Positions 1,880-43,653 of a stretch of 48,217 bases of DNA are shown here, one piece after another. The stretch's first letter is position 1. Every line of letters starts with the position of its first letter. The stretch is taken from the IMG/VR virus record IMGVR_UViG_3300036859_000196, positions 1 to 48,217 of that record. One strand, given 5' to 3'. The notes under the pieces were generated by a model that was not told where the DNA came from, searched no databases, and worked only from the letters and a program-made list of their open reading frames with translations. A program made the position numbers and the translations under genes. This DNA is from a virus.

Positions 1880-3166
1880 ATGGTTCTCCCCCGGCTTGCC
1901 CCCCGCCAGCGCATGGAGCGGGCGGCCTCGGTGCGCCTGGTCGTTGCCCTGGAGACCGCGCTGGAGCGGAACCTCGCCCGCACCATCGTCGCCATCGGCC
2001 GCAACGCCATGTCACGCTACGTCGCCGGCGGCGATCCTGCCGCCGTTGATGCCGTTGATATGTCAACAATCGGCCGCGTGCTCGCCCCATCGCTCCGCAA
2101 CACGGCGCGGGTGTTCGGCCGCGCCCTCGTATCGAAATCGACAGACATCGGCATCGAGACCAAGGCCTTCGAGGATCTCGATGCCGGCGTCGAGGAGTTC
2201 CTTCGCGCGCACACGGCCGACCGCGTGGTTCAGATCTCCGACGCCCTGAAGCGCATCATCACCAACATCATCCGCGACGGGTTGGAGGCCAACCGCGGCG
2301 TCGAGGAGGTGGCCCAGGCCATCGTCGAGGCCACGTCCGGCACCATGGCCATGGCCAGAGCCCGGCGCATCGCCCGCACCGAGACGCACATGGCGGCCAA
2401 TGCCGGCCAGCTCGCCGCCGCCCGCGCATCGCCGCTGCAATGGCGTAAGGAGTGGCTCGCCACCGAGGACCAGCGCACGCGCGAGGACCACGCCGAGGCC
2501 AACGGGCAGACGGTCGACCTTGACGAGCCGTTCATCGTCGGCGGCGAGGAGATGATGATGCCGGGCGATCCGAATGCGCCGCCCGAGCAGACCATAAATT
2601 GTCGGTGTGCAGTTCTTTACAGCCCGATCGCCGCGGTGCAGCGCCCCGATGATGATGAAGCCGGCGGCGTCGAGCTCAACGACCTGCTCACCGATCCCGA
2701 CCTGTGGCGCGCGTTCTTCCAGCAGTTGGAGGAGCGCAACGCCCTGCCGGCCGACGTCGTGCTCTACGCCACCGGCGAGGCGTGCGGCCTGCCGCAATTC
2801 GCGTCCGCCGATGACATCGAGATAGGGAGTGAACTCGTCACCCCGCGCTCAGCGAGCATGAACCCCATCTTGGTCAATGCCGGCGCGGGGCTGCCCGATA
2901 CTTTCCCGCTCTACGGACGCCCGGTGGTCGTGAAGATCGCCGCGCCGGCCGGCACGCCGGCGGAGAGCGGCGCCACGATCGCCATGGAGGTGAAGCTCCG
3001 TGAGGACGTGCGCATCGTCGTCACCGCCGTGACCGAAGAGCGCTGGGGCGAGGCGCAGGACGAGGCCGGCGTCGAACGCGACCGTCCGCGTGCCCGCTAC
3101 CGCCATCAACGCATGCCCGCGAGGCGAGGCATCACATTGGTTGAAGCAGAGGTTCAGACGAAATGA
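1880..3166 (+). CDS. Head morphogenesis protein (Mu gpF / SPP1 gp7-like)
   Basis: Motifs ARTETHMAANAGQ, TEDQRTREDHAEANGQTV, INCRCAV typical of Phage_Mu_F domain. Confidence 0.7.
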   Translation: MVLPRLAPRQRMERAASVRLVVALETALERNLARTIVAIGRNAMSRYVAGGDPAAVDAVDMSTIGRVLAPSLRNTARVFGRALVSKSTDIGIETKAFEDLDAGVEEFLRAHTADRVVQISDALKRIITNIIRDGLEANRGVEEVAQAIVEATSGTMAMARARRIARTETHMAANAGQLAAARASPLQWRKEWLATEDQRTREDHAEANGQTVDLDEPFIVGGEEMMMPGDPNAPPEQTINCRCAVLYSPIAAVQRPDDDEAGGVELNDLLTDPDLWRAFFQQLEERNALPADVVLYATGEACGLPQFASADDIEIGSELVTPRSASMNPILVNAGAGLPDTFPLYGRPVVVKIAAPAGTPAESGATIAMEVKLREDVRIVVTAVTEERWGEAQDEAGVERDRPRARYRHQRMPARRGITLVEAEVQTK

Positions 3167-3879: not shown

Positions 3880-5226
3880 ATGCCTGATGGCGCAATCCCA
3901 ACCGAAGTGAAGGCCCTCTTCGACGACCTGCAGAAGACGCTCCTCGCCAACCGCACGAAGGCCGAGGAGTTGGAGAAGCAGGTCAAGAAGACCGGCGAAG
4001 ACGCTGTGACGAAGGCGGAGCTCAAGAAGACCGACGACGCCTTCGAGGCCCTCAAGACGAAGATCACCGACGAGATCAACGCGCTTCACAAGAAGGCGTC
4101 CCGTCCCGTCGTGGCGCAGGTCACCGACGCCAAGTCCGCGGCGCTGGAGACCAAGGCTAATGCCGAGTTCGGCCGCTGGATCACGCCCGCCGGACATGCG
4201 GTGGACGTGACCAAGGCCGGCGCGGCGCGCATTGAGTATTCCAAGGCCTTCGAGACCTACCTCCGCAAGGGCAAGGACGGGCTGAGCGACCTCGAAGCGA
4301 AGGCGCTGTCCGTCGGCAGTGCACCCGACGGCGGCTTCTTCGTCGAGCCGTTCCGCAGCCAGCAGATCATCGACAAGCTCTACGAGACGAGCGCCATGCG
4401 CGCGATCGCCTCGGTGATCTCCATCACCTCGAAGTCGGTGGAGTATCCCATCGACCGCGATGAAGCGACCACCGGCTGGGTCGGCGAGCAGTCCTCGCGC
4501 CCGGAGACCAACACGCCGCAGGTCGGCATGCTGGAGATCCCCGTGCACGAGCTCTACGCGCTGCCCAAAGCGACGCAGAACCTTCTCGACGACGCCGGCT
4601 TCAACGTCCAGTCCTGGCTCGATATGAAGGTGGCTGACGAGATGGGCCGCGAGGAGAACAAGCAGTTCGTCCTCGGCAACGGGGTCAAGCAGCCCAAGGG
4701 CTTCACGACCTACACGACCGCGGCGACGGCCGATGCCTCCCGAGCCTTCGGGACGCTGGAGCGCGTCAACACTGGCCAAAACGGCGCATTCAAGACGCTG
4801 GCCGCCGGCCCGCCTATCGTCAACCCGGCGGACGACCTGCTGGACCTGATCTACAAGTTCAAGTCCGGCTATCGCTCGCGTCTGCGCTGGGGCGGCACCA
4901 AGCTCACCCTGGGCGCGGTCCGCAAGTTCAAGGACCTCCAGGGCAACTACATATATGACGCCCGCCTAGGCGCCAACGGCATCATCGACACGGTGTTCGG
5001 CTATCCGTGGGACGAGCTCGCCGACATGGCGGACTACACCACGACCGGCGCGCTCGGCATCGCGCTCGCCGACTGGAAGCGCGGCTACCAGATCGTCGAC
5101 CGCCAGGGCATCCGCCAACTGCGCGATCCCTACACGTCGAAGGGCTACGTGCTGTTCTACACGACCAAGCGTGTCGGCGGCGGCGTGCTCGACAGCGACG
5201 CGATCAAGTTCATTCAGTTCAGCTGA
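3880..5226 (+). CDS. Major capsid protein (HK97 fold)
   Basis: 448 aa, N-terminal coiled-coil delta-like domain then capsid-like body; follows protease. Confidence 0.8.
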   Translation: MPDGAIPTEVKALFDDLQKTLLANRTKAEELEKQVKKTGEDAVTKAELKKTDDAFEALKTKITDEINALHKKASRPVVAQVTDAKSAALETKANAEFGRWITPAGHAVDVTKAGAARIEYSKAFETYLRKGKDGLSDLEAKALSVGSAPDGGFFVEPFRSQQIIDKLYETSAMRAIASVISITSKSVEYPIDRDEATTGWVGEQSSRPETNTPQVGMLEIPVHELYALPKATQNLLDDAGFNVQSWLDMKVADEMGREENKQFVLGNGVKQPKGFTTYTTAATADASRAFGTLERVNTGQNGAFKTLAAGPPIVNPADDLLDLIYKFKSGYRSRLRWGGTKLTLGAVRKFKDLQGNYIYDARLGANGIIDTVFGYPWDELADMADYTTTGALGIALADWKRGYQIVDRQGIRQLRDPYTSKGYVLFYTTKRVGGGVLDSDAIKFIQFS

Positions 5227-10918: not shown

Positions 10919-12778
10919 ATGCCCGACGCCAATCTCAATTTCCAGATCACCGGCGACGCATCGCAGTTCCGCGCGGCGCTGAACCAGGCGCAGACGGCAA
11001 GCCGGCAGACCGCGGAGGGCATGACGACCGCCTTCACGCGCGCGACCGAGAAGGTCGCCACGTCGGTGCGCGATCTCGGCCGCGGCATAGGGGGCGTCTT
11101 CGAGCAGGTCGCCCGCAACATCGGCCAGGCCGCGACGCAGTGGGGCGATCAATGGGCGGGCACGGCGCAGGGCGCTTTCAACTCGGTGTCGTCTGCCGCG
11201 CGCGGAATGATTTCCGCCGTGGCGGGGATCTTCGGCGGCGCTACCGCGCGCATGGCGGACATCGCACTCAACCTGTTTGCGCTGCCGTTCGAGAACGCCC
11301 TGGACCACGCGTCACGCGCCGCTGCGCGGTTCCTGCGAGACATCCCATCGGCATCCACCGCAAGCGCCGGGACGGGCATGAGCTACTTCGAGGCCAACCT
11401 TGCGGTGCTGCGCCGGGCCGTCAGATCGATGATGGGTCTGTCCGGCGGCCTCGGCGACAGGCCCCAAGCGTTCGAATTTGAGCAGGCCATGGCCGGGATC
11501 AATCCCGCGGGCACTAGCCAGTCGCCAATGGAGCGAATGGACCCGCTGCGGATGACGGAACTGGGCCGGACTTTCGGCCCAGCCGTTGCCAACCTCACGG
11601 GCCAGGCGCAGTTGGAGGAGCGCGCTGCCGCAGTGGTCGGCCAGACCGCGGGCGCCATTGCGAGGGCGCGCGCCGAATTGGAGCTGTGGCGCGCGCTGTG
11701 GCTTCAGGGCGACCGGGAGCCGAACGCCGATCAGGTTGCAGCCATGGAGGCAATCCTCAACCGGATCGCCAATGCTGCCGACGCGCGCCAATCGAACCAG
11801 GACAGACAGCAAGTGCTCGCGCAGATCCGGCGCGAGATCGAGATGGAGCGTGAGCGGGCGGACGCGATCAATCTGACCGCAGGCGCTCGTGCGCGGGAAC
11901 GCTCCGAGGCCATAGTCCGCGGCTTCCGCCAAGGCCGGGGCGGCCGAGGCGCGAACCTTCTCGAAGATGACGAGGTGCAGGCTGCGCTCGCGCGCAGGGA
12001 AGCCGCCGCCGACGCCGCCGCGCACACGCGCCTTGCGGCCGAAATGGGCCAGGCGGTGCAATTTCAGACCATGGCATTCGACCGCCAGCGCCAATCGATC
12101 GGGGCCACCGCCGGCGAGATGGCGCGGCTTCTGTTCGTGGAGCAGCAGCACCAGGCGGCGATCCGTGCTGGCGTGCTTCTGTCGGATGATGAAGCAGAGG
12201 CGATCAACCGCAACGCCGAAGCAATCGCTCAAAGGACGCAGGCGCTGACGCTCGCGAACGAGCAGTTCAGGCGGTTGTTGGACACCGGCCGCGTGGTTGC
12301 GAGCAGCCTGGAGAGCGCATTCGCCAAGTTCATGGACGGCACCAAGCAGAGCTGGCGCTCGCTCGTGAACGACCTCTCCAAGGACATGGCCAAGCTCGCC
12401 TTCCGGCAGCTGTTCATCAACACCCTGTTCGGCCAGGGCGCCGGCTCGTCCAACCCGCTGGGGCTATTCGGTCAGGTGTTCGGCGGCTTCCGCGCCGAGG
12501 GCGGCTCGGTGTCGGCCGGCACGTCCTACATGGTCGGCGAGCGCGGCCCGGAACTGTTCCGCCCGCGCCAGTCCGGCACCATCGTGCCCAACAGCGCCAT
12601 GCGCGGCGGCGACCCCGCAGTCATCAACATGCGCATCGACCTCTCCGGCGCGAACGGCGACGAGACCATCGCCCGCATCTCCGGCCAAGCGGCGCGCATG
12701 GCGGCGATGGCGGCGGTGCAGGAGAGCAACGCGGCGTTCCCCGCGCGACAGCGCCGGCTGCAGATGCTGGGGACGTGA
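10919..12778 (+). CDS. Tail tape measure protein
   Basis: 619 aa, Ala/Gln-rich helical; C-terminal FRAEGGSVSAGTSYMVGERGPELFRP typical of tape measure C-terminus. Confidence 0.8.
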   Translation: MPDANLNFQITGDASQFRAALNQAQTASRQTAEGMTTAFTRATEKVATSVRDLGRGIGGVFEQVARNIGQAATQWGDQWAGTAQGAFNSVSSAARGMISAVAGIFGGATARMADIALNLFALPFENALDHASRAAARFLRDIPSASTASAGTGMSYFEANLAVLRRAVRSMMGLSGGLGDRPQAFEFEQAMAGINPAGTSQSPMERMDPLRMTELGRTFGPAVANLTGQAQLEERAAAVVGQTAGAIARARAELELWRALWLQGDREPNADQVAAMEAILNRIANAADARQSNQDRQQVLAQIRREIEMERERADAINLTAGARARERSEAIVRGFRQGRGGRGANLLEDDEVQAALARREAAADAAAHTRLAAEMGQAVQFQTMAFDRQRQSIGATAGEMARLLFVEQQHQAAIRAGVLLSDDEAEAINRNAEAIAQRTQALTLANEQFRRLLDTGRVVASSLESAFAKFMDGTKQSWRSLVNDLSKDMAKLAFRQLFINTLFGQGAGSSNPLGLFGQVFGGFRAEGGSVSAGTSYMVGERGPELFRPRQSGTIVPNSAMRGGDPAVINMRIDLSGANGDETIARISGQAARMAAMAAVQESNAAFPARQRRLQMLGT

Positions 12779-12780
12779 CA

Positions 12781-13212
12781 ATGACCGACGCGTTGCGACT
12801 GGAGCGCAAGACTTGGGTCGAAGCTCTGATGTTGATCGCCGGCGGCGCTGCCATGATCACGGCATATGCTGTCTGGGTTGCCGGTAAAATGGCCGTCACC
12901 GAGTTCGGGAAGCGCAAGATCGTTGAGCTTTTCCTGACGGAGGAGGAGCGCATTGAGCGCGAGATTGCTGAGATCGACCTCGATGTTCGGCGCAATGAGC
13001 GCTACCTGGAACGCGGGGCGGTAGATGCACATAGGGACGACGCGCGCGACATCTTGCTCGAGCGCAACGAAGGGCTTCTTGAGCGGCGTGCCGTGCTTGA
13101 TGACAAGCTCCGCGAGCTCCGTCGCGTCATGAGCGAATTTGACGATGTGCCAACCGCAGGCGAGGACGAGAAGTCCGCCCGTGTCCCCGGCGCGCACATG
13201 GTCTACCGATGA
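12781..13212 (+). CDS. Membrane-anchored coiled-coil protein, C-terminal ...VPGAHMVYR tail family
   Basis: N-terminal hydrophobic segment; stop overlaps next ATG (ATGA); shared C-terminal motif. Confidence 0.6.
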   Translation: MTDALRLERKTWVEALMLIAGGAAMITAYAVWVAGKMAVTEFGKRKIVELFLTEEERIEREIAEIDLDVRRNERYLERGAVDAHRDDARDILLERNEGLLERRAVLDDKLRELRRVMSEFDDVPTAGEDEKSARVPGAHMVYR

Positions 13213-14213
13213 ATTTCTACCCCTCGATCATCTACTGGCCGCGCATTCTGCAGCGCGACCGCCGCTGGACGTGGGAGCTGGCCGCCCGCACGCTCTCCGG
13301 TGGCCGCTCCATGTCCGGCCTGATGCCGGTCGCGCGCCTCGACGGCGGCGGCATGTGGATGGCCTCGCTCGGCGATGTCCAGGTGTCCACCCCGGACCAG
13401 GTCAGGGCGTGGCGGGCCATCGCGGCTCGGCTCGACAGCGGGGCGACGCCGATCGCCGTGGAGGCGCGGGACGAACGCCACTCGCCATGGCCGCTCGTGG
13501 GCGGCGTGCCGCTGGTCGCCGAATACGAGGCCACCAACTCGGACGGCAGCACACCGTCCGATCAGACGAACTACGTCTCCGACGTGATCCAAGCCGAGGT
13601 CAAGACGGCCGCGGCGCTCAGGGCGACAACTCTGGATCTGATCCTGGAGAACGCCCAGGCGCTTCGCGGCGGCGAATACTTCAGCATACAGCACGACACG
13701 TTCAGTCACCGGCTCTACCGCCTCGGCAAGGTGACAAAGATCGACACGAGCGACCACGCAGTCAGCGCGATGACGGTGACCATCGCCTCGCCTGGCGTGT
13801 TCACCGTGACGGCGCACGGCTTCGCGGCCAGGCAGCGGGTCTACTTCCGCACCTCCGGCGCGCTGCCGACGGGGCTGTCGCCGGAAACGCTCTACTTCGT
13901 GTTGTCCACAGATTTGTCGGCCAACACCTTCAAGGCCTCCGCGACCGAGGAAGGGACCGCGATCAACACGTCGGGCAGCCAGTCCGGCACGCACCGCGTG
14001 GTGACTGGTGGCTTCCCGACCGTGACAATCCGCCCGCCGCTGCGCGAGGACACTACCGCCGGCACGCGTGTCGAGTTCGACAACCCCACGTGTATCATGC
14101 GGCTCGCGGCGCCTGATGCCATGGATCTGGTACTCGACCGCCGCATCTACGGCCAAGCCGATGTCAAGTTCGTCGAGGACTTCCCGCCGTTCGATCTGGT
14201 GGAGGACGCATGA
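13209..14213 (+). CDS. Putative distal tail protein
   Basis: 334-aa ORF after tape measure; assignment by position only. Confidence 0.45.
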   Translation: MNFYPSIIYWPRILQRDRRWTWELAARTLSGGRSMSGLMPVARLDGGGMWMASLGDVQVSTPDQVRAWRAIAARLDSGATPIAVEARDERHSPWPLVGGVPLVAEYEATNSDGSTPSDQTNYVSDVIQAEVKTAAALRATTLDLILENAQALRGGEYFSIQHDTFSHRLYRLGKVTKIDTSDHAVSAMTVTIASPGVFTVTAHGFAARQRVYFRTSGALPTGLSPETLYFVLSTDLSANTFKASATEEGTAINTSGSQSGTHRVVTGGFPTVTIRPPLREDTTAGTRVEFDNPTCIMRLAAPDAMDLVLDRRIYGQADVKFVEDFPPFDLVEDA

Positions 14214-14818
14214 CCTCCCCCGCCTTCGACGCCGCGCTTGCATCGGGCAATCCCCGCGTCGGCATCTTCTTCCGCCTCGGCGTCATCATGGAGGACGGCG
14301 AACCGTTCCGCATGTGGCTCGGCATCGGCGATTGCGAGGCGGGCATAGATGCGGAGGACGGAGCCGGCGAGATCTATAGGGGCATGGGCGAGATGCTCAA
14401 CGTCCCCGCATTTCAACAGTTGATCAACGGCGTCGCGGAACGCGTGACGTTCACGCTGTCGGGCGTGCCGCCGCGCGCTGTCGAGCTGGCCACCGGCGAA
14501 GCCGCCGAGGTCAAGGGCGTCGCCCTCAACGTCGGCCTCGGCGTGTTCGATCAGGATTGGCAGCTTGTCGACGAGCCGGTGTGGCTGCGGCGGTACATCG
14601 TCGATTTTCTGACCGTCGCGCGCCAGCAGTCCGGCACCGAGGAGGCGGTCTATACCGTCTCGCTGTCGACGCGATCGATCTTCACGGGCCGCCGCCGGCC
14701 GGGGCTGTCGTTCTTCACCGACGAGGACCAGCAGCGCCGCTCGCCTGGGGATCGGTTCTGCGAGCACGCGCGGCGCTATGCACAGCTGGAGGCCAAGGCG
14801 TGGCCCAAGACCACCTAG
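14210..14818 (+). CDS. Putative tail hub protein (GTA gp13-like)
   Basis: 202 aa; synteny with GTA tail module. Confidence 0.4.
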   Translation: MTSPAFDAALASGNPRVGIFFRLGVIMEDGEPFRMWLGIGDCEAGIDAEDGAGEIYRGMGEMLNVPAFQQLINGVAERVTFTLSGVPPRAVELATGEAAEVKGVALNVGLGVFDQDWQLVDEPVWLRRYIVDFLTVARQQSGTEEAVYTVSLSTRSIFTGRRRPGLSFFTDEDQQRRSPGDRFCEHARRYAQLEAKAWPKTT

Positions 14819-15198
14819 CCGCGTTCCTCTCCCGCGCCGCCTCTCGCGGCTTCGTGTGGGGCGTGCACGACTGCATGCTGTTCGCGGCGGACTGGGCGCT
14901 GGCGCTCACCGGGCGCGATCCGGCGGCGGCATGGCGCGGTACCTACTGCTCCAAAGAGGAGGCCATAGTCATCATCCACGAGGCCGGCGGCATGATGCAC
15001 CTGATGCATCGCGCGCTGGGACTATGCGGTTGGGCCCCGGCCCCCGGCGACGAAGGTGATATCGCTCTCGTGCGGCGCTCGCACCACGCCGATCCGGCTG
15101 CGGCGGTTTGCGTCTCGCGGCAGCGCGTCGCCTTGTTGACACGCCGCGGCCTTGTCGTGAGCCACTGCCCGATCATGGATGCCTGGCGTCATGGCTGA
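14800..15198 (+). CDS. Phage cell-wall peptidase, NlpC/P60 family
   Basis: GTG 14800; motif RGFVWGVHDCMLFAADW with catalytic-like Cys. Confidence 0.6.
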   Translation: MAQDHLAAFLSRAASRGFVWGVHDCMLFAADWALALTGRDPAAAWRGTYCSKEEAIVIIHEAGGMMHLMHRALGLCGWAPAPGDEGDIALVRRSHHADPAAAVCVSRQRVALLTRRGLVVSHCPIMDAWRHG

Positions 15199-17386
15199 GA
15201 CCATCGGCTTCCTGATCCTGGCCGGCGCCGAGGCGGCCGGCGCCGCCGGCGCTGCGGCGGCTGGCGCTACCGTCATTCTGCCCGGCCTCACGGTGGCCAC
15301 GGCCGTGGGCACTGCGGCCATCCTCGGCGCCTCGATCGCGGTGGCGTTCGCCACCCAGCCGGAGGTGCCCAAGGCTTCGGACGGCTCGCAGCCCATCCGC
15401 CAGCCGATCCCGCCGCGTCCCTTCGGCTACGGGCGCACGCGCGTTGCCGGCGCCTACATGCTGTTCGAGGTCGACGACGCCGGGGAGAGCTGGGACGTGC
15501 TCGCCCTGCACCACGGCCGTATCGACAGCATCGTACACGTCTACCTTAACGATGACCTGGTCCAGCTCAGCCCGACCGGGTTCGTGAACGGACTCCTGAA
15601 CCTGCCCGACACCGACACGCGCTACAACCACAACGTCGGCAACCTCGTCCAACTCAAGTTCACCCTGGGGGCGGACTCCGAGACTGCGTTTGCTGATGTC
15701 GTGGCGGTCCTGCCGACGCTGTGGACCAGCAATCACCGCGGTGACGGCGTGGCCTCGCTGATGCTCCACTGCATCGACGTGAGCACAACCAATGTGCTCA
15801 AGAACTACCCTCGCGGCCTGCCGAAGCCCTCCGTGGTGGCGGACCTCTCCCCCATCTGGGACCCGCGCGACGGCGGCCAGGACCCAGACGATCCCGACAC
15901 GTGGGAGGTCTCGTCCAACCCGGTACTGCAGCTGCTCGACTATCTCACCAACGCCGACCGCGGGCCGGCGCTCGACTACGCGGCCCTGATCGAGCCGGTG
16001 ATCGACGAGTGGATGGCCGAGGCCGACATCTGCGACGAGATCGTCGACAAGGCCGACCTGTCAACCGAGCCGCGCTACAGGTCCGACGGCTGGGCGTTTC
16101 TTACCACCGACCCGGCCGAAGTGATCGGTGCCATCCTCAACGCGTGCGACGGATGGCTGGCAGAGAACGGCGACGGCACGCTCTCCCTGAAGGTCGGCCA
16201 GTACCGCGCGCCCGATGTCACCTTCACCGACGACCACATCGTCGGCTTCGCCATCGACAAGGGCGTCGCTGACGAGGAGATCGTCAACGAGGTGCAGTTC
16301 ACGTACACAGCCGCGCAGGCCAATTGGCGCGACGCGCCGGGCGTGTCGTTCCGCGACGAGGCCTCCATCTCCGAACTTGGCGTCTTGCGCTCGACGCGGC
16401 TCAGCCTCAACTGGGTGCAGAGCCATTCGCAGGGCCGCCGCCTCGCCAAGCGTGCGCTAGCCCGCCACACGGCGGCGGCGCGCGGCCAACTCATAACAAC
16501 GCTGTACGGGTTGCGGGCGCTGGGCGAGCGCTGGGTCAACGTGCGCTCGCGCCTGATCGCCGACCTCACCGACGCCGTCATCGAAATCACCAGGGTGCGC
16601 ATTGATCTTGCCAATGCCCGGCTCACCTTCGAGTGGACGCTCGTCAACCCCAACAGCGTCGATGCGTGGGACGAGGAGACCGAGGAAGGCGTCGCGCCGC
16701 ACTACTTCCCGGTGCCCACGAACGTCACTGCCGAGGACCACGGGGCCGGCAACGAGATCCGGGTGGACTTCGACGAGGTCGACCCGGCGCAGCCGTGGCT
16801 CTGGTACGCCATCGACTACCGCCTCGGCACCTCCGGGTCGTGGACGCGCGTGCTGCGCTTTGCCGAGGAAGACCTCACGACGCTCGGCGGCGGGCGCGTC
16901 CGTCTCACCACCGACGCAGTGTCTCCCGGCGCCTACTCGGTGCGCATCGCCGCCACAGGCCGGCAGCTGATCAACAGCAATCCATATTGGCGAGTGGGCG
17001 AGCCTGAGCTGGTTGAAGCCGCCACGACGGTCAACATCACCCTGTCTGGCGAGCAGACCATCGACGGCGTCGCCGTCATCGCGACCAACCGCGTGCTGGT
17101 CAAGGACCAGGCCACGCCGGCGAATAACGGCATCTACACGGTGGCAGTGGGTGCGTGGACTCGCGCCGCCGCCATGGACACCTGGGCCGAGACGGTCGGC
17201 ATCGTCGCCGACGTCGCCGCCGGCACGGTCAACGGCCGCACCAGGTGGGCCTCGACGACAAGCCCATCAGGAACGCTCGGGGTTACGGCCATCGAATTTG
17301 CTCTGATCGGGCCAGACCAGCTGGTCGATCCCGATCTGGTGTGGGCGCCCAGCGTCGACGGCTTCACCAACGTGGTCATCTCATGA
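15191..17386 (+). CDS. Host specificity / central tail fibre protein (GTA gp15-like)
   Basis: ~730 aa; C-terminal RVLVKDQATPANNGIYTV module. Confidence 0.6.
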   Translation: MAETIGFLILAGAEAAGAAGAAAAGATVILPGLTVATAVGTAAILGASIAVAFATQPEVPKASDGSQPIRQPIPPRPFGYGRTRVAGAYMLFEVDDAGESWDVLALHHGRIDSIVHVYLNDDLVQLSPTGFVNGLLNLPDTDTRYNHNVGNLVQLKFTLGADSETAFADVVAVLPTLWTSNHRGDGVASLMLHCIDVSTTNVLKNYPRGLPKPSVVADLSPIWDPRDGGQDPDDPDTWEVSSNPVLQLLDYLTNADRGPALDYAALIEPVIDEWMAEADICDEIVDKADLSTEPRYRSDGWAFLTTDPAEVIGAILNACDGWLAENGDGTLSLKVGQYRAPDVTFTDDHIVGFAIDKGVADEEIVNEVQFTYTAAQANWRDAPGVSFRDEASISELGVLRSTRLSLNWVQSHSQGRRLAKRALARHTAAARGQLITTLYGLRALGERWVNVRSRLIADLTDAVIEITRVRIDLANARLTFEWTLVNPNSVDAWDEETEEGVAPHYFPVPTNVTAEDHGAGNEIRVDFDEVDPAQPWLWYAIDYRLGTSGSWTRVLRFAEEDLTTLGGGRVRLTTDAVSPGAYSVRIAATGRQLINSNPYWRVGEPELVEAATTVNITLSGEQTIDGVAVIATNRVLVKDQATPANNGIYTVAVGAWTRAAAMDTWAETVGIVADVAAGTVNGRTRWASTTSPSGTLGVTAIEFALIGPDQLVDPDLVWAPSVDGFTNVVIS

Positions 17387-17967
17387 GCTACTTCTCCAAG
17401 CTCTTCTCCGAGATCTGGCGCGACTACGTCACGGCCGGCGTGCCCGCGTCGGGCGCGCACGATCCGGTCAAGGGGGATATCCGCAACTGGGGTGCCGTGG
17501 TGGAGGAGCACCTGTGGCAGGTGCTGGCCGCCTCGGCGGTGGCGGTCTCGCACACCGTCAGCACGACCGAGACCGCGCTCGCCACCATCCAGATCCCCGC
17601 GAACACGTTGGGGGCCAACGGCATCTTGCGCGTGACGACGCTGTGGACGATCACCAACAGCGCCAATGACAAGACATTGCGCGCGCGCCTCGCGGGCCTG
17701 GTAGGGACGGCCTACCTCGAAGTCGTGCTGACAACGCAAGCCAGTTACCGCGACCAGCGACAGATCGCCAACCGCAACGCCGCGAATTCTCAGATCGGCG
17801 GCTCGTTCTCAGCGCTGGGCGGCTTTGGGAACTCCGGAAACGCCAACGTCACTTCGGCCGTCGACACCACCGCCAACCAGGACCTCGTCATATCCGGCCA
17901 ACTCGAGACCGGTAGCGAGACGATCACGCTCGAAGCCTACCTCGTCGAAGTGTTGAAGCGCGCCTGA
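17383..17967 (+). CDS. Tail fibre protein 1
   Basis: 194 aa; N-terminal FSKLFSEIWRDYVTAGVPASGAHD shared with next gene. Confidence 0.5.
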   Translation: MSYFSKLFSEIWRDYVTAGVPASGAHDPVKGDIRNWGAVVEEHLWQVLAASAVAVSHTVSTTETALATIQIPANTLGANGILRVTTLWTITNSANDKTLRARLAGLVGTAYLEVVLTTQASYRDQRQIANRNAANSQIGGSFSALGGFGNSGNANVTSAVDTTANQDLVISGQLETGSETITLEAYLVEVLKRA

Positions 17968-17977
17968 GAAAACCGAC

Positions 17978-19642
17978 ATGATCTTCACCAAGCTAGGCGC
18001 CGAGATCTGGCGCGACTTCGTCACGGCCGGCGTGCCCGGTTCGGGCGCGCACGATATCGCCAAGGCCGATGTTCGCCAATGGATGGAAGCCGTCGAGTCC
18101 GCGCTCGGCGCCGGCCTCCTCATGACCACCACGCCGCTCGACACCGATGCGATAAGCGCTTTCTTCGCATCCTATGAATGCCTCGGCGCCACGAAGTTTC
18201 AGCTGATCCAGGCGGAAGATCAATCCGACCTGGATGACAGCGGCATGCGTGACTTGATGTTCGTGGAGCACCAGGACGAGGACCTCGTAGACTACACGTC
18301 GGCGCTCACCGACCCCAGCGATCGCAAAGTCTCGAACGCGCTGCGCGTCTTTATGACGGGCAAGAATACCGCTGGCTCTTACGCGAACGATCAGTTCAAA
18401 GACTTGCATGCCGGCTGGTTTGCCGCCATTGGCCGCACCCGCGGCCTGCGGGGCGTCTCAGGTCTGCTCTCCAACTCGATACAATACAGCGACGGCGTGG
18501 GCGGGAACGAATGCCGCGTCGAGCAGCCGGCCGCGGCCTCTTTGCAGAGCACCCAACTCTTCGGCTGGCTGATCACGTTGAACGCCCGCAAGGGGGATGC
18601 CGACGGTTCACACTTCGTGCGCGCGCTGGAGATCCAGAACGCCGGCAAGCTGGCAACGGCGGCGATGGAGGTCTTCACGCTTAGCGGCTTCGGCGAGGCG
18701 GGGACATGGCAGTACCTCCTCAAGGGCGATCAGGCGACCGTCACGACCGCTGCCATTCGCATGCCGGCTTCGGCGAGCGGCGATGTCGGCACGATCATTG
18801 AGTACGACAGCAACGACTATTCGTACTATGAGCGGGCATCGAACCATTTTCATTGGATCATCGGCGGAGCAGATGCGGCCGAGCTGACGGCGGGCGGCTT
18901 CAACATCTCAGGCGGCTTGCGCGTCGGCTTCGGCGTTGGCACATCGCCGACAGCTGATCGGGTCGAGATTGCCGATGCAAATTTTGCACTGGATATTGCT
19001 GCCGGAGGAGCCGCCGCGCAACCTGGGGTAATTTTCGACAGTGGCGATACTCTTATTTTCATCAGAGCGTCTAATGAGTTCCGCTTCCGCATAGGTGGCA
19101 GCTCAGCATTCGTTCTGCAGTCCGGTGCCATCTTGCCGCCGACTAACGACACCGTTGCCTTGGGGCTTGCGGCAACGTCCTTTTCCGACCTGTTTCTGGC
19201 ATCCGGCGCCGTCATCGGCTATGCCAACGGCGACTACAGCCTCACGCATTCCAGCGGCCTGCTGACCGCGAGCGGCGCGTTCAAATCCGCCCACGCGACG
19301 GGCGGCATTGGTTATGCGACCGGCGCAGGCGGGACCGTCACGCAGACGACGAACAAGGCGACCGGCGTCAGTCTCAACAAGGTGGTCGGGCAGATCACCA
19401 TGGACGCCGCGGCGCTTGCGGCCAACACGACTGTTGCCTTCACGCTCACCAATTCGGCCATCGCAGCAACCGACTTGGTGAGTGTCGCGCATAGCTCCGC
19501 CGGTACTGCGGGGGCCTATCAGGTATGGGTAACGACGCTGGCGGCCGGATCGTGCGTGATCCAGGTGCGCAACATCACGGCGGGTTCACTGAGCGAGGCA
19601 ATCGTCCTGAGCTTCGCCGTGCTCAAGGGCGTTACTTCCTGA
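17978..19642 (+). CDS. Tail fibre protein 2
   Basis: 554 aa; N-terminal FTKLGAEIWRDFVTAGVPGSGAHD; Gly/Ala/Thr-rich C-terminal region. Confidence 0.55.
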   Translation: MIFTKLGAEIWRDFVTAGVPGSGAHDIAKADVRQWMEAVESALGAGLLMTTTPLDTDAISAFFASYECLGATKFQLIQAEDQSDLDDSGMRDLMFVEHQDEDLVDYTSALTDPSDRKVSNALRVFMTGKNTAGSYANDQFKDLHAGWFAAIGRTRGLRGVSGLLSNSIQYSDGVGGNECRVEQPAAASLQSTQLFGWLITLNARKGDADGSHFVRALEIQNAGKLATAAMEVFTLSGFGEAGTWQYLLKGDQATVTTAAIRMPASASGDVGTIIEYDSNDYSYYERASNHFHWIIGGADAAELTAGGFNISGGLRVGFGVGTSPTADRVEIADANFALDIAAGGAAAQPGVIFDSGDTLIFIRASNEFRFRIGGSSAFVLQSGAILPPTNDTVALGLAATSFSDLFLASGAVIGYANGDYSLTHSSGLLTASGAFKSAHATGGIGYATGAGGTVTQTTNKATGVSLNKVVGQITMDAAALAANTTVAFTLTNSAIAATDLVSVAHSSAGTAGAYQVWVTTLAAGSCVIQVRNITAGSLSEAIVLSFAVLKGVTS

Positions 19643-19839
19643 GCAGATAATCCGTAGGTTCATCGCCAGCTATGCGCCGGAACTCTGCTTCAGCCTCACG
19701 AACCGCTTTCCTCTGTTCTCGAGTTCCGTACCACGCCCCTGTCGGTCGGCGCCAAGGCTTACGCCGCAAGAGCGCAGCCGCGCCAACCGAAAGAAACACA
19801 GTCCACACGGTCGCGCCAGACCACCACAAGAACGAGTCA

Positions 19840-20037
19840 ATGACCATGACCCCTGACCTCCAGAAACTCCAGGACATGCTCGGCGCCATGCAGCAGCAGC
19901 GCGACCAGGCGCTGAACTCCGTGGTGCTCGCTTATGCTGAGATCGCGGCGCTGAAGCGCACGGTAGCGGAGCAGGGTTTGCGGATCAAGGAGCTGGAGGC
20001 CACAGCGCTTCCTAAAACGGAAGGCGTCGCTCCATGA
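19840..20037 (+). CDS. Small coiled-coil protein
   Basis: ATG 19840 inside ORF 19672..20037; stop overlaps endolysin ATG. Confidence 0.35.
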   Translation: MTMTPDLQKLQDMLGAMQQQRDQALNSVVLAYAEIAALKRTVAEQGLRIKELEATALPKTEGVAP

Positions 20038-20888
20038 CTGACCGCTTCCCAGCGTGTCTGGCCGAGACCCTGCGCCACGAGGGTGGCTGGAGTGAGGTTC
20101 GTGAGGACCCCGGCGGAGCCACCATGAAGGGCGTCACCATCGCGGTGTACGCCGGCTATATTGGCATCCCGCTCACGCCAGCCACGACGCCGTCTCTCAA
20201 GGCGCGCCTGCGCAACATCACTGACGCCGAGCTCAAGGCGATCTACGGCAAGAACTACTGGGGCGCGGCGCGCTGTGGTGAGATGCCGGTCGGTGTAGAC
20301 CTCGCCGTCTTCGACGTGGCGGTGAACAGCGGCGTCGGCCGCGCCGCGAAGCTCCTGCAGAAGGTGGTCGGCGCCACCCAGGACGGACACATCGGAGCCG
20401 CAACACTGGCCGCGGTCAAGCGCGCAGATCCCCCTTCTGTCGTGCGCAATCTGATGGCGGAGCGGCGTGCGTTCCTGCGCCGCCTGCCCACGTTCTGGCG
20501 CTTCGGCACGGGCTGGATGCGCCGTTGCGATGCCATCGAAGCCGCGGCGATCGCGGCGAGCGGACCGGCAGGTCTCGACGACACCATAACCGTCGTCACC
20601 GCCCCTGCGCCGCTGCCGGATGCTGACGCGCAGTCAGCAACTCAGGGCCGCGCTGTGGCGCCCGACCCGAAGCCGCCGGTCGCCACCGAGGTCACGCTCG
20701 CCGCCACCGGCATCGCCACGAACATCGGCGGGTGGGCCAACGGCTTCGCCAAGGTCTACGGCATGCAGGGCAACCCGAATGTGTGGGCGATCGTTCTGGC
20801 GTTCCTGTCCGAGCCGCTGTTCCTCACCAGCATCGTCACGCTGGTGGGCGCGCTGATGACGTACCTGTGGAGGCGCAAGCACGCATGA
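20034..20888 (+). CDS. Endolysin: GH108 lysozyme + PG_binding_3 domains, C-terminal hydrophobic segment
   Basis: LRHEGGWSEVREDPGGATMKGVT (GH108-like); YWGAARCGEMPVGVDLAVFDVAVNSG (PG-binding); C-terminal VWAIVLAFLSEPLFLTSIVTLVGALMTYLW. Confidence 0.85.
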   Translation: MTDRFPACLAETLRHEGGWSEVREDPGGATMKGVTIAVYAGYIGIPLTPATTPSLKARLRNITDAELKAIYGKNYWGAARCGEMPVGVDLAVFDVAVNSGVGRAAKLLQKVVGATQDGHIGAATLAAVKRADPPSVVRNLMAERRAFLRRLPTFWRFGTGWMRRCDAIEAAAIAASGPAGLDDTITVVTAPAPLPDADAQSATQGRAVAPDPKPPVATEVTLAATGIATNIGGWANGFAKVYGMQGNPNVWAIVLAFLSEPLFLTSIVTLVGALMTYLWRRKHA

Positions 20889-21250
20889 TCGCGCTCCTCT
20901 CCGCCGCCTGGTGGGGGCAGAAGCTCTCCGGCATCGCCGCTCAGGCCGTCGGCATCGCCGTGGCCGTCGCCATCGTCATCGGCGGCGTCTGGTGGCTCCG
21001 GCACGACGCCCGCATGGATGAGCGCGCGACGTGGGAAGCCAGGCTCACGGCTGCGAAGCTCGCCGCCACACTGAAGGCGCGCGCCCGCGAGCGGCAATCC
21101 GAGGCCATCGGCAAGCAGCAAGCCGAGAATTGGGCGGCGTCGCTCGCCGCATCCGAGGCCGCGCGCCGCGACGCGGAGACCAGGCTGGAAGCCATGCGCG
21201 CCCGCATCATCGCGTACCCGAAAGAGATCGTCGAGGCCCTGAACCGATGA
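20885..21250 (+). CDS. Inner-membrane spanin (i-spanin-like)
   Basis: N-terminal transmembrane helix then Ala/Arg-rich coiled coil; ATGA overlaps on both sides. Confidence 0.55.
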   Translation: MIALLSAAWWGQKLSGIAAQAVGIAVAVAIVIGGVWWLRHDARMDERATWEARLTAAKLAATLKARARERQSEAIGKQQAENWAASLAASEAARRDAETRLEAMRARIIAYPKEIVEALNR

Positions 21251-21570
21251 CCCGCAACGCTCACCGCTCGGCACGGCGCCTTGTGCTGGCGATCGGCCTC
21301 GCCATCATGGCGCTGTCCCTCGTGCTCTTTCTGGCCGGCTGCGCCACGACCACGGCGGCCGACGGCCCGGTCTATGTAACGACCGCCGCGCCCGCAATCC
21401 CAGCGGAGTGCTCGGCGCGCTGCCCTGCGGAACCGAAGCTGCCTATCGAGGACATAACCGACATTGCCGCGGCGAAGGACCGCTCGGCCATGAAGACGGC
21501 GCTCCGGTGCGAGGCGCACTACCGCCGGACGTGCGCAGCGCGGCTCAAGGTGCTGCTGCCGCCCCTGTGA
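21247..21570 (+). CDS. Outer-membrane lipoprotein spanin (o-spanin-like)
   Basis: Signal peptide with lipobox LAGC; Pro- and Cys-containing mature region. Confidence 0.6.
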   Translation: MTRNAHRSARRLVLAIGLAIMALSLVLFLAGCATTTAADGPVYVTTAAPAIPAECSARCPAEPKLPIEDITDIAAAKDRSAMKTALRCEAHYRRTCAARLKVLLPPL

Positions 21571-23218: not shown

Positions 23219-23247
23219 TTGACGTACTGACCTTGAGCGTCTACATT
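23219..23247 (+). promoter_or_regulatory. Sigma70-like promoter inside the left inverted repeat
   Basis: TTGACG, 17-nt spacer, TACATT upstream of transposase start. Confidence 0.4.
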
Positions 23248-23275
23248 GGCGGTCATGAGATCAGGGGATGCCGCC

Positions 23276-24202
23276 ATGAACCTCACCAATTCGATTTTCC
23301 AGGACGCCGAGAAGGCCCGCGAGTTTCTTGAGGCTCAGCGTTGGCCGGATGGTCCCATTTGCCCCCACTGCGGCGTTATCGCTGACGCCACCAAACTCGC
23401 CGGCAAGAGCACGCGAGCTGGCGTCTACAAGTGCAAGTCTTGCGAGAAGCCTTTCACCGTCACGGTCGGCACCGTATTCGAGCGCTCAAAGATCCCACTC
23501 AACAAGTGGTTGCTGGCGACGTTTCTGCTCACGGCTTCCAAGAAGGGAATGAGCAGCCACCAGATCCACCGTAGTCTGGAGGTTACTTACAAGACCGCTT
23601 GGTTCATGACCCATCGCATCCGCGAGGCCATGCGTGACATCAATGCCGGCCCCATCGGTGGCGAGGGCGGCGACCTGGAGAGCGACGAAACTTACATCGG
23701 CGGCAAGGCCAAGAACGCCCACAAGGGCAAGCCCGAGCCGAAGAAGCATGCCGTGCATGCCCTTGTGGAGCGCGGCGGTCGTGTGCGCGCCACCCATGTC
23801 GCCGACGTGACCGCCAGGACGTTGCGCTCGGTCATGGAGAAGCACGCAGACAAGCGTTCTACGCTTCATACGGACGACGGCCTCACGGGCTTGTCCATTG
23901 GCAAGGACTTCGCCGGCAGCACAACCGTCAACCACAGCGCTGGCGAGTATCACCGCTACAAGGACGGCGCCGGCATCCAATCTGCCGAGAGCTTCTTTGC
24001 GATCCTGAAGCGGCAGGTCTACGGAACGCACCACGCGATCAGCGAGGCGCATCTGCAGCGCTATGTGACGGAAGCCACCTTCAAGTGGAACCACCGCATT
24101 GCGCTGGGCGTGGACGACACCGGCCGCGCCAAGGCTGCTCTCAAGTCCATCGGCGGCAAGCGTTTGACCTATGGGACGATTCGTGGAGCCCAGAACGCCT
24201 AA
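23276..24202 (+). CDS. IS1595-family transposase (ISXO2-like DDE)
   Basis: N-terminal zinc ribbon RWPDGPICPHCG...YKCKSCEKPFTVTVGTVFERSKIPLNKWL then LEVTYKTAWFMTHRIREAM. Confidence 0.85.
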   Translation: MNLTNSIFQDAEKAREFLEAQRWPDGPICPHCGVIADATKLAGKSTRAGVYKCKSCEKPFTVTVGTVFERSKIPLNKWLLATFLLTASKKGMSSHQIHRSLEVTYKTAWFMTHRIREAMRDINAGPIGGEGGDLESDETYIGGKAKNAHKGKPEPKKHAVHALVERGGRVRATHVADVTARTLRSVMEKHADKRSTLHTDDGLTGLSIGKDFAGSTTVNHSAGEYHRYKDGAGIQSAESFFAILKRQVYGTHHAISEAHLQRYVTEATFKWNHRIALGVDDTGRAKAALKSIGGKRLTYGTIRGAQNA

Positions 24203-31120: not shown

Positions 31121-31936
31121 CTAGGTCGGTTCACATGAACCGACCAACGTCCGCGTATCCGAGAAGCGGGGGGGGGCCGCAGGGGTGCTGGCGAGTTCAC
31201 CCACCATCCACTTCGCGGCATCGGCCTTGATCTGCTCGAACACGACGGGGTGCTGGCTCTTGAAGTCCGGCATGCGCGACGACGCCACGTATCCCTGCGC
31301 GGTCGCGTCGAGCCAAATCTGCGTCCAGCGCGCCGCGTCGAGTCCGAGCAGTTTGAAGTCGCGTCGCGTCACGGGTCTCCGCTCCAGAATGGCAACGATC
31401 TTGAGCGCCTTGATCTTCCACGCCGTCAGTTGGACCGGGGCACTATGGCCGGCGCCGCTGTCGGGGACATAGTCAGGGAGGGCGACCCGCTTCACCGGGC
31501 ACCACTCGTGCCAATGTCGGTCATCGCCCCAGCGCTCGGCGACGTGCGGCAGATCGGGTTCGAACCTGCGGCGGTAGACCCGCTCGGACGGTGGCCATAT
31601 CGTTATCACAGTGAGTCCGAGCCAGTTGCAGATCGTGCCGAGCCCGTTCTGCTTTCCTCCTTCTGGCACCAGCACGGCACGACAATCCGGGCCGATCTCG
31701 GCGGCTCCGTACCAACGTTCGGGCAGCGCCTGCACCGCCACCGTGTTGTTGAGGATGAGCTTGGCCTCGATGCCAATCTGGAAGCCGTCTTCCCTGCGAA
31801 CGAGCAGGATGTCCCAGCCGCCAGTCTCGGCATACGCAACCCAGGCGTCACCCTTTGTGACCTGCGTGATGAACTCGGCGCAGAGCGCGACCTCGCTCTC
31901 GAAACCGGGCTTGCGGGATCGCTTCGTGGCCGTCAT
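31121..31936 (-). CDS. Hypothetical protein with PD-(D/E)xK nuclease-like motif
   Basis: Starts at ATG overlapping integrase stop; motif DILLVRREDGFQIGIEAKL; G9 tract encodes PPP near C-terminus. Confidence 0.45.
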   Translation of the reverse strand: MTATKRSRKPGFESEVALCAEFITQVTKGDAWVAYAETGGWDILLVRREDGFQIGIEAKLILNNTVAVQALPERWYGAAEIGPDCRAVLVPEGGKQNGLGTICNWLGLTVITIWPPSERVYRRRFEPDLPHVAERWGDDRHWHEWCPVKRVALPDYVPDSGAGHSAPVQLTAWKIKALKIVAILERRPVTRRDFKLLGLDAARWTQIWLDATAQGYVASSRMPDFKSQHPVVFEQIKADAAKWMVGELASTPAAPPRFSDTRTLVGSCEPT

Positions 31937-43601: not shown

Positions 43602-43653
43602 TCATCGCCGATGCGTTTCCGTTGCGTTGCGTTTGACATGTCAACAACCAAGG

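What the first reader, a model, noticed from the sequence alone, without database searches (positions are those of the whole stretch)
17383..18060. Adjacent fibre genes share a ~45-aa N-terminal module and a ~50-nt near-identical stretch
Genes 17383..17967 and 17978..19642 both begin xxKLxxEIWRDxVTAGVPxSGAHD, with nucleotide near-identity around 17405-17455 and 18000-18050, then diverge completely. This is the pattern of a conserved virion-attachment module with swappable distal domains, and the shared DNA gives a recombination substrate for host-range switching.
Basis: seen in the sequence. Interest (0 to 1): 0.45.

Follow-up and report, generated by a model that had tools for sequence, protein, structure and literature searches.

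The report
Two tail-fibre genes share one anchor
Two neighbouring tail-fibre genes of an uncultured temperate phage start with the same ~45-residue attachment module and then carry unrelated, swappable receptor-binding ends, which is a common phage design seen here in an uncatalogued module family.

Summary
Gene A (17383-17967, 194 aa) and gene B (17978-19642, 554 aa) share a 41-residue N-terminal match (63% identity, E 8e-16). They also share a 56-nt stretch with 3 mismatches (17408-17463 vs 18000-18055).

Both genes lie directly after the J-like central tail fibre gene of a ~48-kb temperate siphovirus related to rhizobiophages 16-3 and phiLM21.

The shared module always occupies residues 1-45. 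It occurs in at least 1,974 protein clusters, on proteins of 57-1419 aa. Their bodies are typical receptor-binding or depolymerase domains. No Pfam, NCBIfam or PHROG model matched it.

DNA similarity to related phages stops at the 3' edge of the module in both genes and resumes at the next conserved block. The distal parts therefore behave as exchangeable cassettes.

Inside the module, a 19-codon core is 93% identical between A and B. All 15 synonymous-capable codons are the same (expected 7.6; P about 2e-5 for a core chosen after seeing the alignment). This is the highest value among 105 module pairs. The next 14 codons are only 57% identical, and other phages with tandem pairs show no such excess. 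I read this as a short recent gene-conversion tract.

The kind of system is well known, so this is a new member of it and of moderate interest.

The parts
15179..17386 (+). J-like central tail fibre / host-specificity protein (735 aa). It is a homologue of the H protein of phage 16-3 and the presumed docking partner of the module.
   Evidence: phrog_5616 E 3.9e-109, phrog_31 'central tail fiber J', Pfam Phage-tail_3. tblastn: 35% identity to the phiLM21 tail fibre and 29% to 16-3 h. Its stop codon overlaps the gene A start as ATGA.
17322..17510 (+). Conserved DNA island made of the last ~21 codons of J plus the N-module of gene A. It is flanked on both sides by variable cassettes.
   Evidence: blastn: window 17322-17510 matches L007 8009-8194 at 74%, with no match on either side.
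17383..17967 (+). Gene A, a short fibre or knob protein of 194 aa.
   Evidence: ORF. It is identical to the called protein P0001 and has full-length orthologues P0002-P0004 at 67-71% identity.
17383..17517 (+). N-terminal module of gene A (aa 1-45), predicted as helix 3-18, a conserved G-x-P-x-S-G loop, and helix 27-42.
   Evidence: Profile hit E 2.9e-28. AF2 secondary structure, pLDDT 61-73 in this part.
17518..17955 (+). Distal domain of gene A (aa 46-191), a jelly-roll beta-sandwich.
17978..19642 (+). Gene B, a long fibre protein of 554 aa.
   Evidence: ORF. There is no full-length homologue; the best is P0275 at 42% identity over 60% of the query.
17978..18109 (+). N-terminal module of gene B (aa 1-44).
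   Evidence: Profile hit E 2e-23. BLASTP against A, E 8e-16.
19340..19624 (+). C-terminal beta-sandwich tip domain of gene B (aa 455-549), a widely shared mobile module.
   Evidence: phrog_18251 E 4.5e-41. 60-63% identity to cyanophage proteins. Most of the 120 metagenomic proteins listed match only this end, typically at 60-79% identity over about 20-25% of the query, and carry other N-termini. AF2 pLDDT 79-93.
17408..17463 (+). Copy 1 of the near-identical 56-nt core, the putative gene-conversion tract (gene A codons 9-27).
18000..18055 (+). Copy 2 of the near-identical 56-nt core (gene B codons 8-26), the probable donor type.
   Evidence: winA carries A18 and D27, which are otherwise seen in B-type modules.

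Best explanation
Genes A and B encode two receptor-binding proteins of a temperate siphovirus. Each has a ~45-residue N-terminal helix-loop-helix module joined to an unrelated distal part. In A that part is a 150-aa jelly-roll knob. In B it is a ~500-aa fibre ending in a beta-sandwich tip. I infer that the module is the anchor that docks the (probably trimeric) protein onto the baseplate, most likely onto the J-like protein encoded just upstream, whose stop codon overlaps the start of gene A. Because the module is conserved while the distal parts are not, it acts as a homology island. Recombination within it, between phages or between the two copies, replaces distal cassettes, and this is visible as breakpoints at the module's 3' edge. 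In this lineage a ~56-nt tract of the module was also copied between the two genes, probably from B to A, which made the two anchors identical at 16 of 19 core residues. Shown: the homology, the strictly N-terminal position, the diversity of attached domains, the breakpoints and the excess of shared codons. Inferred: docking on J, trimer formation, presence of both proteins on the virion and any effect on host range.
For: Context: the gene order is tape measure, Dit-like protein, hub, DUF6950, J, A, B, GH108 endolysin. Family: the exhaustive profile search found 1,974 clusters at E<=1e-3 and 410 at E<=1e-10. In the 150 listed, the match starts within the first few residues in all but one, and lengths range from 57 to 1419 aa. 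Attached domains in 83 members: Pect-lyase 10, Beta_helix 5, CBM_5_12 5, NosD 4, SASA 4, RCC1 2, DUF2793 2, Peptidase_S74 2, plus endosialidase, GDSL and collagen. Cultured examples have the module at the start of the gene that follows the J/H gene: 16-3 p023 'tail fiber protein', RHph_X2_25, RHph_TM3_3_14B, Brucella phage BiPBO1 gp30 (pectate lyase), and a degenerate form in phiLM21 gp47. Breakpoints: window and L035 are collinear over 14217-17482 and then break; similarity resumes at 17977-18111 and breaks again. Window and L007 break at 17510 and resume at the endolysin (20030). Window and L006 run through gene A and the B module to 18143 and then break. L007 has both modules with different distal domains. 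Tandem pairs recur in L007, L004/L006, L035 and L041. In L044 and L045 two module genes are separated by two small genes. Conversion: the core is 53/57 nt identical with 15/15 codons shared (expected 7.6, P 2e-5), the top of 105 pairs. The next 14 codons are 24/42 nt identical. Other within-genome pairs are 0.65-0.75 identical with codon identity at chance. Structure: gene A has two N-terminal helices and a confident jelly roll. Analogy: the RcGTA fibre Rcc00171 has a 45-residue N-terminal alpha-helical rod that docks on a fibre-binding domain of the J-like megatron protein (PMC7296036). The J-A start/stop overlap is conserved in the window, L004, L035, L007 and L044.
Against: There is no direct evidence that the module binds J or any other tail protein, and no covariation analysis was possible. 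The module region of the AF2 model is only moderately confident (pLDDT 61-73). The gene B model is poor apart from its tip. The conversion test rests on 15 codons and a core window chosen after seeing the data; about 1,000 windows are possible, so the corrected P is about 0.02. winA and winB also share 13/15 and 13/14 codons with L035B, so part of the codon identity could reflect a recently spread B-type core or stronger local codon bias than my model assumes. The exact runs of 15-20 nt are short for RecA-dependent recombination.
Confidence: 0.75

Rival explanations
1. The shared stretch reflects only purifying selection on a common docking peptide combined with strong GC-rich codon bias. No DNA was exchanged between A and B.
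For: The module is conserved at protein level across the whole family. Many core codons are the preferred ones. winA and winB each share 13 of 14-15 codons with L035B, which comes from another sample.
Against: 15/15 identical codons against 7.6 expected from the window's own codon usage, including non-preferred ACG, CCC, TCG, GCG and GAT. The pair is the highest of 105, and the other three within-genome pairs are at chance. Identity drops abruptly from 93% to 57% although protein conservation continues.
Confidence: 0.15
2. The near-identity is left over from a very recent tandem duplication of one fibre gene, after which everything outside the core diverged or was replaced.
For: The genes are adjacent direct repeats in the same orientation.
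Against: The tandem arrangement is shared with L007, L004/L006, L035 and L041, so it predates their divergence. The first 8 and last ~20 codons of the module are more diverged between A and B (48-57% nt) than between orthologues in different phages (62-70%).
Confidence: 0.05
3. Gene A is not a receptor-binding protein. It is an accessory baseplate, adaptor or decoration protein that merely uses the same docking peptide. Only gene B determines host range.
For: Gene A is short (194 aa) and has no PHROG or Pfam annotation. In L044 and L045 the same position holds a 79-aa protein that is almost only the module. Jelly rolls also occur in capsid and decoration proteins.
Against: The distal domain of A is the C-terminal end of many longer proteins with fibre-type N-termini such as DUF2793 (the RcGTA fibre domain), Mtd_N, T4_gp9_10 and Gly-rich stalks. 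Its fold matches trimeric TNF/C1q-like lectin heads and phage fibre tips. It is replaced by an unrelated domain in L007, as expected for a specificity element.
Confidence: 0.15
4. The repeats belong to a programmed diversification system, either a diversity-generating retroelement (TR/VR) or an invertase-driven fibre switch.
For: There are two similar sequences in adjacent fibre genes.
Against: The repeats are direct, lie at the 5' ends of the genes, and both are coding. Only 1 of the 3 mismatches involves adenine. No reverse transcriptase or serine invertase was found among about 39 ORFs scanned; the only recombinases seen are a tyrosine integrase at 31933-33414 and an IS1595 transposase. No Rfam match.
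Confidence: 0.01

Closest known systems
Modular receptor-binding proteins with a conserved N-terminal anchor and exchangeable C-terminal specificity domain, as described for multi-RBP Klebsiella phages (PMC6872550, PMC8262889)
   Same: A short conserved N-terminal structural part, with unrelated C-terminal depolymerase or binding domains. Several RBP genes lie side by side. Specificity changes by domain swapping at the module boundary.
   Different: This is a different module family with no sequence relation to the T7 gp17-like anchor and no curated model. The tail is siphovirus-type and J-based rather than podovirus or myovirus. Here both RBPs carry the same anchor, whereas in those phages a first RBP carries the anchor and a second docks on the first through a conserved peptide.
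Rhizobium phage 16-3 tail genes h and p023, and relatives phiLM21 gp48/gp47 and Brucella phage BiPBO1 gp29/gp30
   Same: The same tail-module gene order. The J/H homologue is 29-35% identical. The gene after it begins with the same module.
   Different: Those phages have a single large module-bearing gene, a beta-helix tailspike type of 620-890 aa. The window has two, one short and one long, with different distal domains.
RcGTA tail fibre Rcc00171 (DUF2793) docking on the fibre-binding domain of the megatron g15 protein (PMC7296036, PMC5026251)
   Same: A fibre gene associated with a J-like hub protein. A ~45-residue N-terminal alpha-helical segment serves as the attachment part. The distal domain of gene A occurs elsewhere fused to DUF2793.
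   Different: Neither gene A nor gene B has DUF2793. In P0141 and P0144 the module sits upstream of a DUF2793 core, so it is an alternative adaptor and not the same domain. The window's J did not match the megatron sequence in the PDB search.
Constant and variable tail-fibre segments of Mu/P1 (Gin/Cin inversion) and the Bordetella phage DGR
   Same: One constant fibre part is combined with alternative receptor-binding ends.
   Different: Those systems use site-specific inversion or retrohoming with dedicated enzymes. Here both variants are complete genes, presumably expressed together, and exchange appears to occur by ordinary homologous recombination.

Membership tests
Modular phage RBPs with a conserved N-terminal anchor | Encoded in the tail/baseplate module next to the hub or central fibre gene | tested here: met
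   The order is tape measure, Dit-like, hub, DUF6950, J, A, B, endolysin. The same position is seen in 16-3, BiPBO1, L007, L035, L033 and L044.
Modular phage RBPs with a conserved N-terminal anchor | The same N-terminal segment is joined to many unrelated C-terminal domains typical of RBPs or depolymerases | tested here: met
   1,974 clusters, with the match starting within the first few residues in 149 of the 150 listed and lengths of 57-1419 aa. Pfam domains found: pectate lyase, beta-helix, CBM_5_12, SASA, endosialidase, Peptidase_S74, RCC1, DUF2793.
Modular phage RBPs with a conserved N-terminal anchor | Mosaic breakpoints between related phages fall at the anchor/distal boundary | tested here: met
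   blastn breaks at window 17482-17510 and 18111-18143.
Modular phage RBPs with a conserved N-terminal anchor | The anchor physically attaches the protein to the tail | not testable with these tools
   This is only inferred from gene order, translational coupling with J and the RcGTA analogy (PMC7296036).
DUF2793 / Rcc00171-type GTA tail fibre | Presence of the DUF2793 (PF10983) domain | tested here: not met
   No Pfam hit for A or B at E<=0.01. DUF2793 is found only in other proteins that share gene A's distal domain, or downstream of the module in P0141 and P0144.
Diversity-generating retroelement (TR/VR pair) | A reverse transcriptase nearby, adenine-specific TR/VR mismatches, and a VR at the 3' end of the target gene | tested here: not met
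   No RT in the ORFs scanned. The mismatches are A/T, C/G and G/T. The repeats are at the 5' ends of the genes.
Invertible tail-fibre switch (Gin/Cin/Min type) | Inverted crossover sites flanking alternative fibre ends, plus a serine invertase | tested here: not met
   The repeats are direct. No invertase was found among the scanned ORFs. Not every small ORF was scanned.
Paralogues under gene conversion (concerted evolution) | A within-genome paralogue tract more similar at synonymous sites than orthologues are, with sharp boundaries | tested here: met
   15/15 codons shared against 7.6 expected, P 2e-5. Core identity is 93% against 57% for the next 42 nt. It is the highest of 105 pairs. Caveat: the tract is short, the window was chosen post hoc, and few DNA relatives were available.

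The most novel reading that the evidence does not exclude
The two co-resident receptor-binding proteins compete for the same docking sites on the J trimer, so virions carry mixed sets of A and B. Gene conversion keeps their anchors matched to that one site, which would be concerted evolution of a docking peptide. In some relatives the same module works as a free 79-aa adaptor (L044/L045). The in-register direct repeats would also allow a 592-nt deletion, or an unequal crossover, that removes or adds whole RBP cassettes at measurable frequency, making the number of fibres a fast-evolving trait.
Probability: 0.25. Interest if true: 0.5.

Novelty: new member of a known kind. Interest (0 to 1): 0.33.

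Why it matters
The finding defines a large N-terminal anchor family for tail fibres and tailspikes of J-type siphoviruses of Alphaproteobacteria, including phages of Rhizobium, Sinorhizobium and Brucella. The family has at least ~2,000 clusters and matched no model in Pfam, NCBIfam or PHROGs.

A profile for it would flag receptor-binding genes in metagenomic phages and mark the exact junction where distal domains can be exchanged. That is useful for host prediction and for engineering host range.

The conversion tract is a small but concrete example of how two anchors within one genome are kept alike. The general principle is already textbook, so the value lies in annotation and engineering, not in new concepts.

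Tried and rejected
- **Word-indexed search:** a protein search with the 48-aa module profile returned only 8 short proteins. The exhaustive HMM search was needed instead.
- **Genome scans:** the first genome contigs attempt failed because the alignment had no conserved stretch. The second found no confirmed relative.
- **DNA pattern scans:** the exact core in viral contigs and a back-translated EIWRD[YF]VTAGVP pattern in metagenome contigs both gave nothing. Even the window's own contig is not in those collections.
- **PDB sequence searches:** no significant match for gene A (one hit at E 0.99) and none for gene B. J matched only a capsid decoration protein through its C-terminal add-on domain.
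- **Gene B structure:** the model was too poor (mean pLDDT 55) for a fold search.
- **Clustering of distal regions:** single-linkage clustering was uninformative because mosaic sharing merges 109 of 131 proteins.
- **RNA and transcription signals:** there was no Rfam match and no promoter-like site, and the two terminator-like sites match the number expected by chance, so nothing explains the repeat.
- **Rejected readings:** DGR and invertase switches (see the rival explanations).
- **Literature:** the papers I could open on phage 16-3 did not characterise p023.
Full report
**Observation**

Gene A (17383-17967, 194 aa) and gene B (17978-19642, 554 aa) are real ORFs on the + strand.
- BLASTP between them gives one significant segment: A residues 4-44 against B residues 3-43, 26/41 identical, E 8e-16. 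Nothing else is significant.
- The repeat finder reports 17391-17490 vs 17983-18082, 100 nt at 82% identity.
- The best core is 17408-17463 vs 18000-18055, 56 nt with three mismatches and exact runs of 20, 18 and 15 nt.
- A 56-mer search allowing 3 mismatches finds only these two sites. None of 100 shuffles of the window gave a second match.

**Context**

The window looks like a complete, circularly permuted temperate siphovirus genome.
- Packaging and head genes: large terminase 46181-47527, portal 11-1501, head morphogenesis protein 1880-3166, major head protein 3880-5226.
- Integration and mobile elements: integrase 31933-33414 on the minus strand and an IS1595 transposase at 23246-24202.
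- Tail module: tape measure 10919-12778, Dit-like protein 13209-14213, hub-like protein 14210-14818, DUF6950 protein 14815-15198, J-like central fibre 15179-17386, then gene A, gene B and a GH108 endolysin at 20034-20888.
- The gene A start overlaps the J stop codon as ATGA. Gene B starts 10 nt after the gene A stop.
- The J-like protein is 35% identical to the phiLM21 tail fibre and 29% identical to the H (host-range) protein of phage 16-3. The element therefore belongs to the broad group of 16-3/phiLM21-like phages of Hyphomicrobiales.

**The shared module**

A profile of 13 module sequences was searched exhaustively against 1.84 billion representative proteins.
- It found 1,974 clusters at E<=1e-3 and 410 at E<=1e-10.
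- In the 150 listed, the match starts within the first few residues in all but one and ends at about residue 45.
- The proteins range from 57 to 1419 aa, with a median of 494.

A Pfam scan of 83 members found domains typical of phage receptor-binding proteins and depolymerases:
- pectate-lyase-like 10, right-handed beta-helix 5, NosD 4;
- CBM_5_12 5, SASA acetylesterase 4, RCC1 propeller 2, DUF2793 2, Peptidase_S74 chaperone 2;
- single cases of endosialidase, GDSL esterase and collagen.

The module region itself matched no model in Pfam, NCBIfam or PHROGs.

In cultured phages the module starts the gene that follows the J/H gene. Examples are 16-3 p023 (annotated 'tail fiber protein'), RHph_X2_25, RHph_TM3_3_14B and Brucella phage BiPBO1 gp30 (pectate lyase). 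phiLM21 gp47 has a degenerate form. L033 joins the module to a beta-helix protein.

The AF2 model of gene A (mean pLDDT 88.7) gives helix 3-18, the conserved G-x-P-x-S-G loop and helix 27-42. Confidence in this part is only moderate.

**The distal parts**

Gene B has no full-length homologue. Most of the listed metagenomic proteins match only its C-terminal end (about 20-25% of the query), typically at 60-79% identity, and carry diverse N-terminal or middle domains. That end is also 60-63% identical to cyanophage proteins. Both proteins are therefore mosaics of mobile modules.

**Cassette structure**

blastn of window 13000-21500 against related loci shows conserved islands separated by unrelated cassettes.
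- With L035, similarity is collinear over 14217-17482 (71%) and stops at the end of module A. It resumes at 17977-18111 (78%, module B) and stops again.
- With L007, similarity runs to 16959. It skips 16960-17321, a C-terminal add-on domain of J that L007 lacks. It resumes at 17322-17510 (the J tail plus module A), stops, and resumes at the endolysin (20030).
- With L004/L006, similarity continues through all of gene A and module B to 18143 and then stops, although the L006 contig continues.
- L007, the closest relative found in the viral-contig scan (J 68% identical), has both modules but two unrelated distal domains of 208 and 365 aa.

Two module-bearing genes in tandem also occur in L004/L006, L035 and L041. 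In L044 and L045 the two are separated by two small genes. On the contigs of P0002 and P0004, which yielded no DNA, the gene A orthologue is followed by a second gene of 873 aa and 396 aa respectively.

**Is the DNA identity more than protein conservation?**

I aligned modules from 15 genes codon by codon.
- In the 19-codon core (S/A-E-I-W-R-D-Y/F-V-T-A-G-V-P-A/G-S-G-A-H-D), winA and winB are 53/57 nt identical.
- All 15 positions that have the same amino acid and a choice of codon use the same codon. The window's own codon usage predicts 7.6 (Poisson-binomial P 2e-5). The shared codons include the non-preferred ACG, CCC, TCG, GCG and GAT.
- This is the highest core identity of all 105 pairs. 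The others have a mean of 0.655 and a maximum of 0.86.
- The next 14 codons are only 24/42 nt identical.
- The three other within-genome pairs (L007, L006, L035) are 65-75% identical, with codon identity at chance.
- Over codons 28-48, winA groups with its orthologue L006A (70%) and winB with L006B (68%), while winA against winB is 48%.
- winA is the only short A-type gene with Ala18 and Asp27, residues otherwise seen in B-type modules. Both winA and winB are 86% identical to L035B in the core.

The simplest reading is a short gene-conversion tract copied from the B module into the A module in this lineage.

Caveats apply. The tract is short and the window was chosen after seeing the data. Only a handful of relatives with DNA were available. 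The codon sharing with L035B shows that this core is also unusually conserved between phages.

**Mechanism**

These points are shown by the analyses above:
- The module is a strictly N-terminal element joined to many RBP bodies.
- Breakpoints fall at its edge.
- The two copies in this genome have exchanged DNA.

The following points are inferred:
- The module docks the protein on the baseplate, most likely on the J-like protein. The gene order is fixed. The J-A start/stop overlap is conserved (window, L004 and L035 ATGA; L007 TGATG; L044 shares a base). In RcGTA, the fibre's 45-residue N-terminal alpha-helical rod binds a fibre-binding domain of the J-like megatron protein (PMC7296036).
- In L044 and L045 the position after J holds a 79-aa protein that is almost only the module. 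This fits a docking role that does not depend on any distal domain.
- The two copies are direct repeats aligned codon to codon. A crossover between them would delete 592 nt and produce one hybrid gene, module plus B body, still coupled to J. Unequal exchange between genomes would add cassettes.
- Whether A and B share the same sites on one virion is unknown.

**Alternatives considered**

- Selection plus codon bias alone: disfavoured by the codon test.
- A recent duplication: disfavoured, because the tandem pair predates the divergence of several relatives and the flanks are more diverged between paralogues than between orthologues.
- Gene A as a non-RBP accessory protein: possible, but its domain is a common fibre tip and it is swapped out in L007.
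- DGR or invertase switch: rejected. The repeats are direct and at the 5' ends, the mismatches are not adenine-specific, and no RT or invertase was found in about 39 scanned ORFs. There is no Rfam match.

**Comparison with known systems, and verdict**

The architecture matches the well-described modular RBPs with N-terminal anchors (PMC6872550, PMC8262889) and the RcGTA fibre-megatron arrangement (PMC7296036). It differs in three ways:
- The anchor family is not captured by Pfam, NCBIfam or PHROGs.
- Both co-resident RBPs carry the same anchor.
- There is a detectable conversion tract.

It is a new member of a known kind, and interest is moderate to low. The practical value is an annotation handle for RBPs of alphaproteobacterial siphoviruses and a defined junction for domain swapping.

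Noticed in passing
window 16960-17321 (J residues ~595-715): The J-like protein carries a ~100-aa C-terminal add-on domain. It is absent from the J proteins of L007 and L004/L006 (620-621 aa) and present in L035. It matches PHROGs annotated as tail fibre, head decoration and virion structural protein, and the PDB capsid decoration protein 9nx3_A (E 4.5e-5). It is flanked by conserved DNA and looks like a third exchangeable cassette.
   Followed up: partly
L044 5001-5240 and L045 2291-2530; proteins P0122, P0124, P0126-P0128, P0132, P0148: These are stand-alone proteins of 64-79 aa made of the module plus a short tail with a conserved end (for example RLELARRRMLFHFAS). They are encoded directly after J and followed by two small genes and a second module-bearing gene. 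They may be free adaptors or split fibre genes.
   Followed up: partly
window 19340-19639 (gene B residues ~455-554): The C-terminal tip domain is 60-63% identical to hypothetical proteins of Prochlorococcus and Synechococcus phages (MED4-184, P-HS2, S-CBS4, KBS-S-2A). It is typically 60-79% identical to metagenomic proteins with DUF2793, Phage_T7_tail, Mtd_N, pectate-lyase or esterase parts. This is unusually high conservation for a module shared across phages of different phyla.
   Followed up: partly
window 23246-24202: An IS1595/ISXO2-like transposase (DDE_Tnp_IS1595 E 1e-28 plus its zinc ribbon) sits inside the phage genome, at the start of a lower-GC stretch (about 58-62% from 23 to 29 kb, against 65-69% elsewhere).
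   Followed up: no
window 43282-44322: A 346-aa ORF with an outer-membrane beta-barrel domain (OMP_b-brl, E 3.4e-7) lies in the phage genome just upstream of the packaging genes. It could be a moron or lysogenic-conversion gene.
   Followed up: no
window 19632-20037: Between gene B and the endolysin there are competing small ORFs. One is a minus-strand 85-aa ORF (19632-19889) with hydrophobic segments. The other is a plus-strand ORF whose last ~65 codons look like a coiled coil and overlap the endolysin start. Neither was assigned.
   Followed up: no
P0141 and P0144: In these proteins the module (residues 1-44) is followed by a DUF2793 core at residues ~66-160. The module therefore replaces the first ~15 residues of RcGTA-type fibres, which links the two fibre-anchor systems.
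   Followed up: partly
window 35779-36285 (minus strand) and neighbour 34836-35810: A Sipho_Gp157 protein lies next to an unassigned 324-aa ORF. From memory, Gp157-family genes often lie near phage recombination genes, so the neighbour could be the phage's own recombinase, which bears on exchange at short homologies. This was not tested.
   Followed up: no
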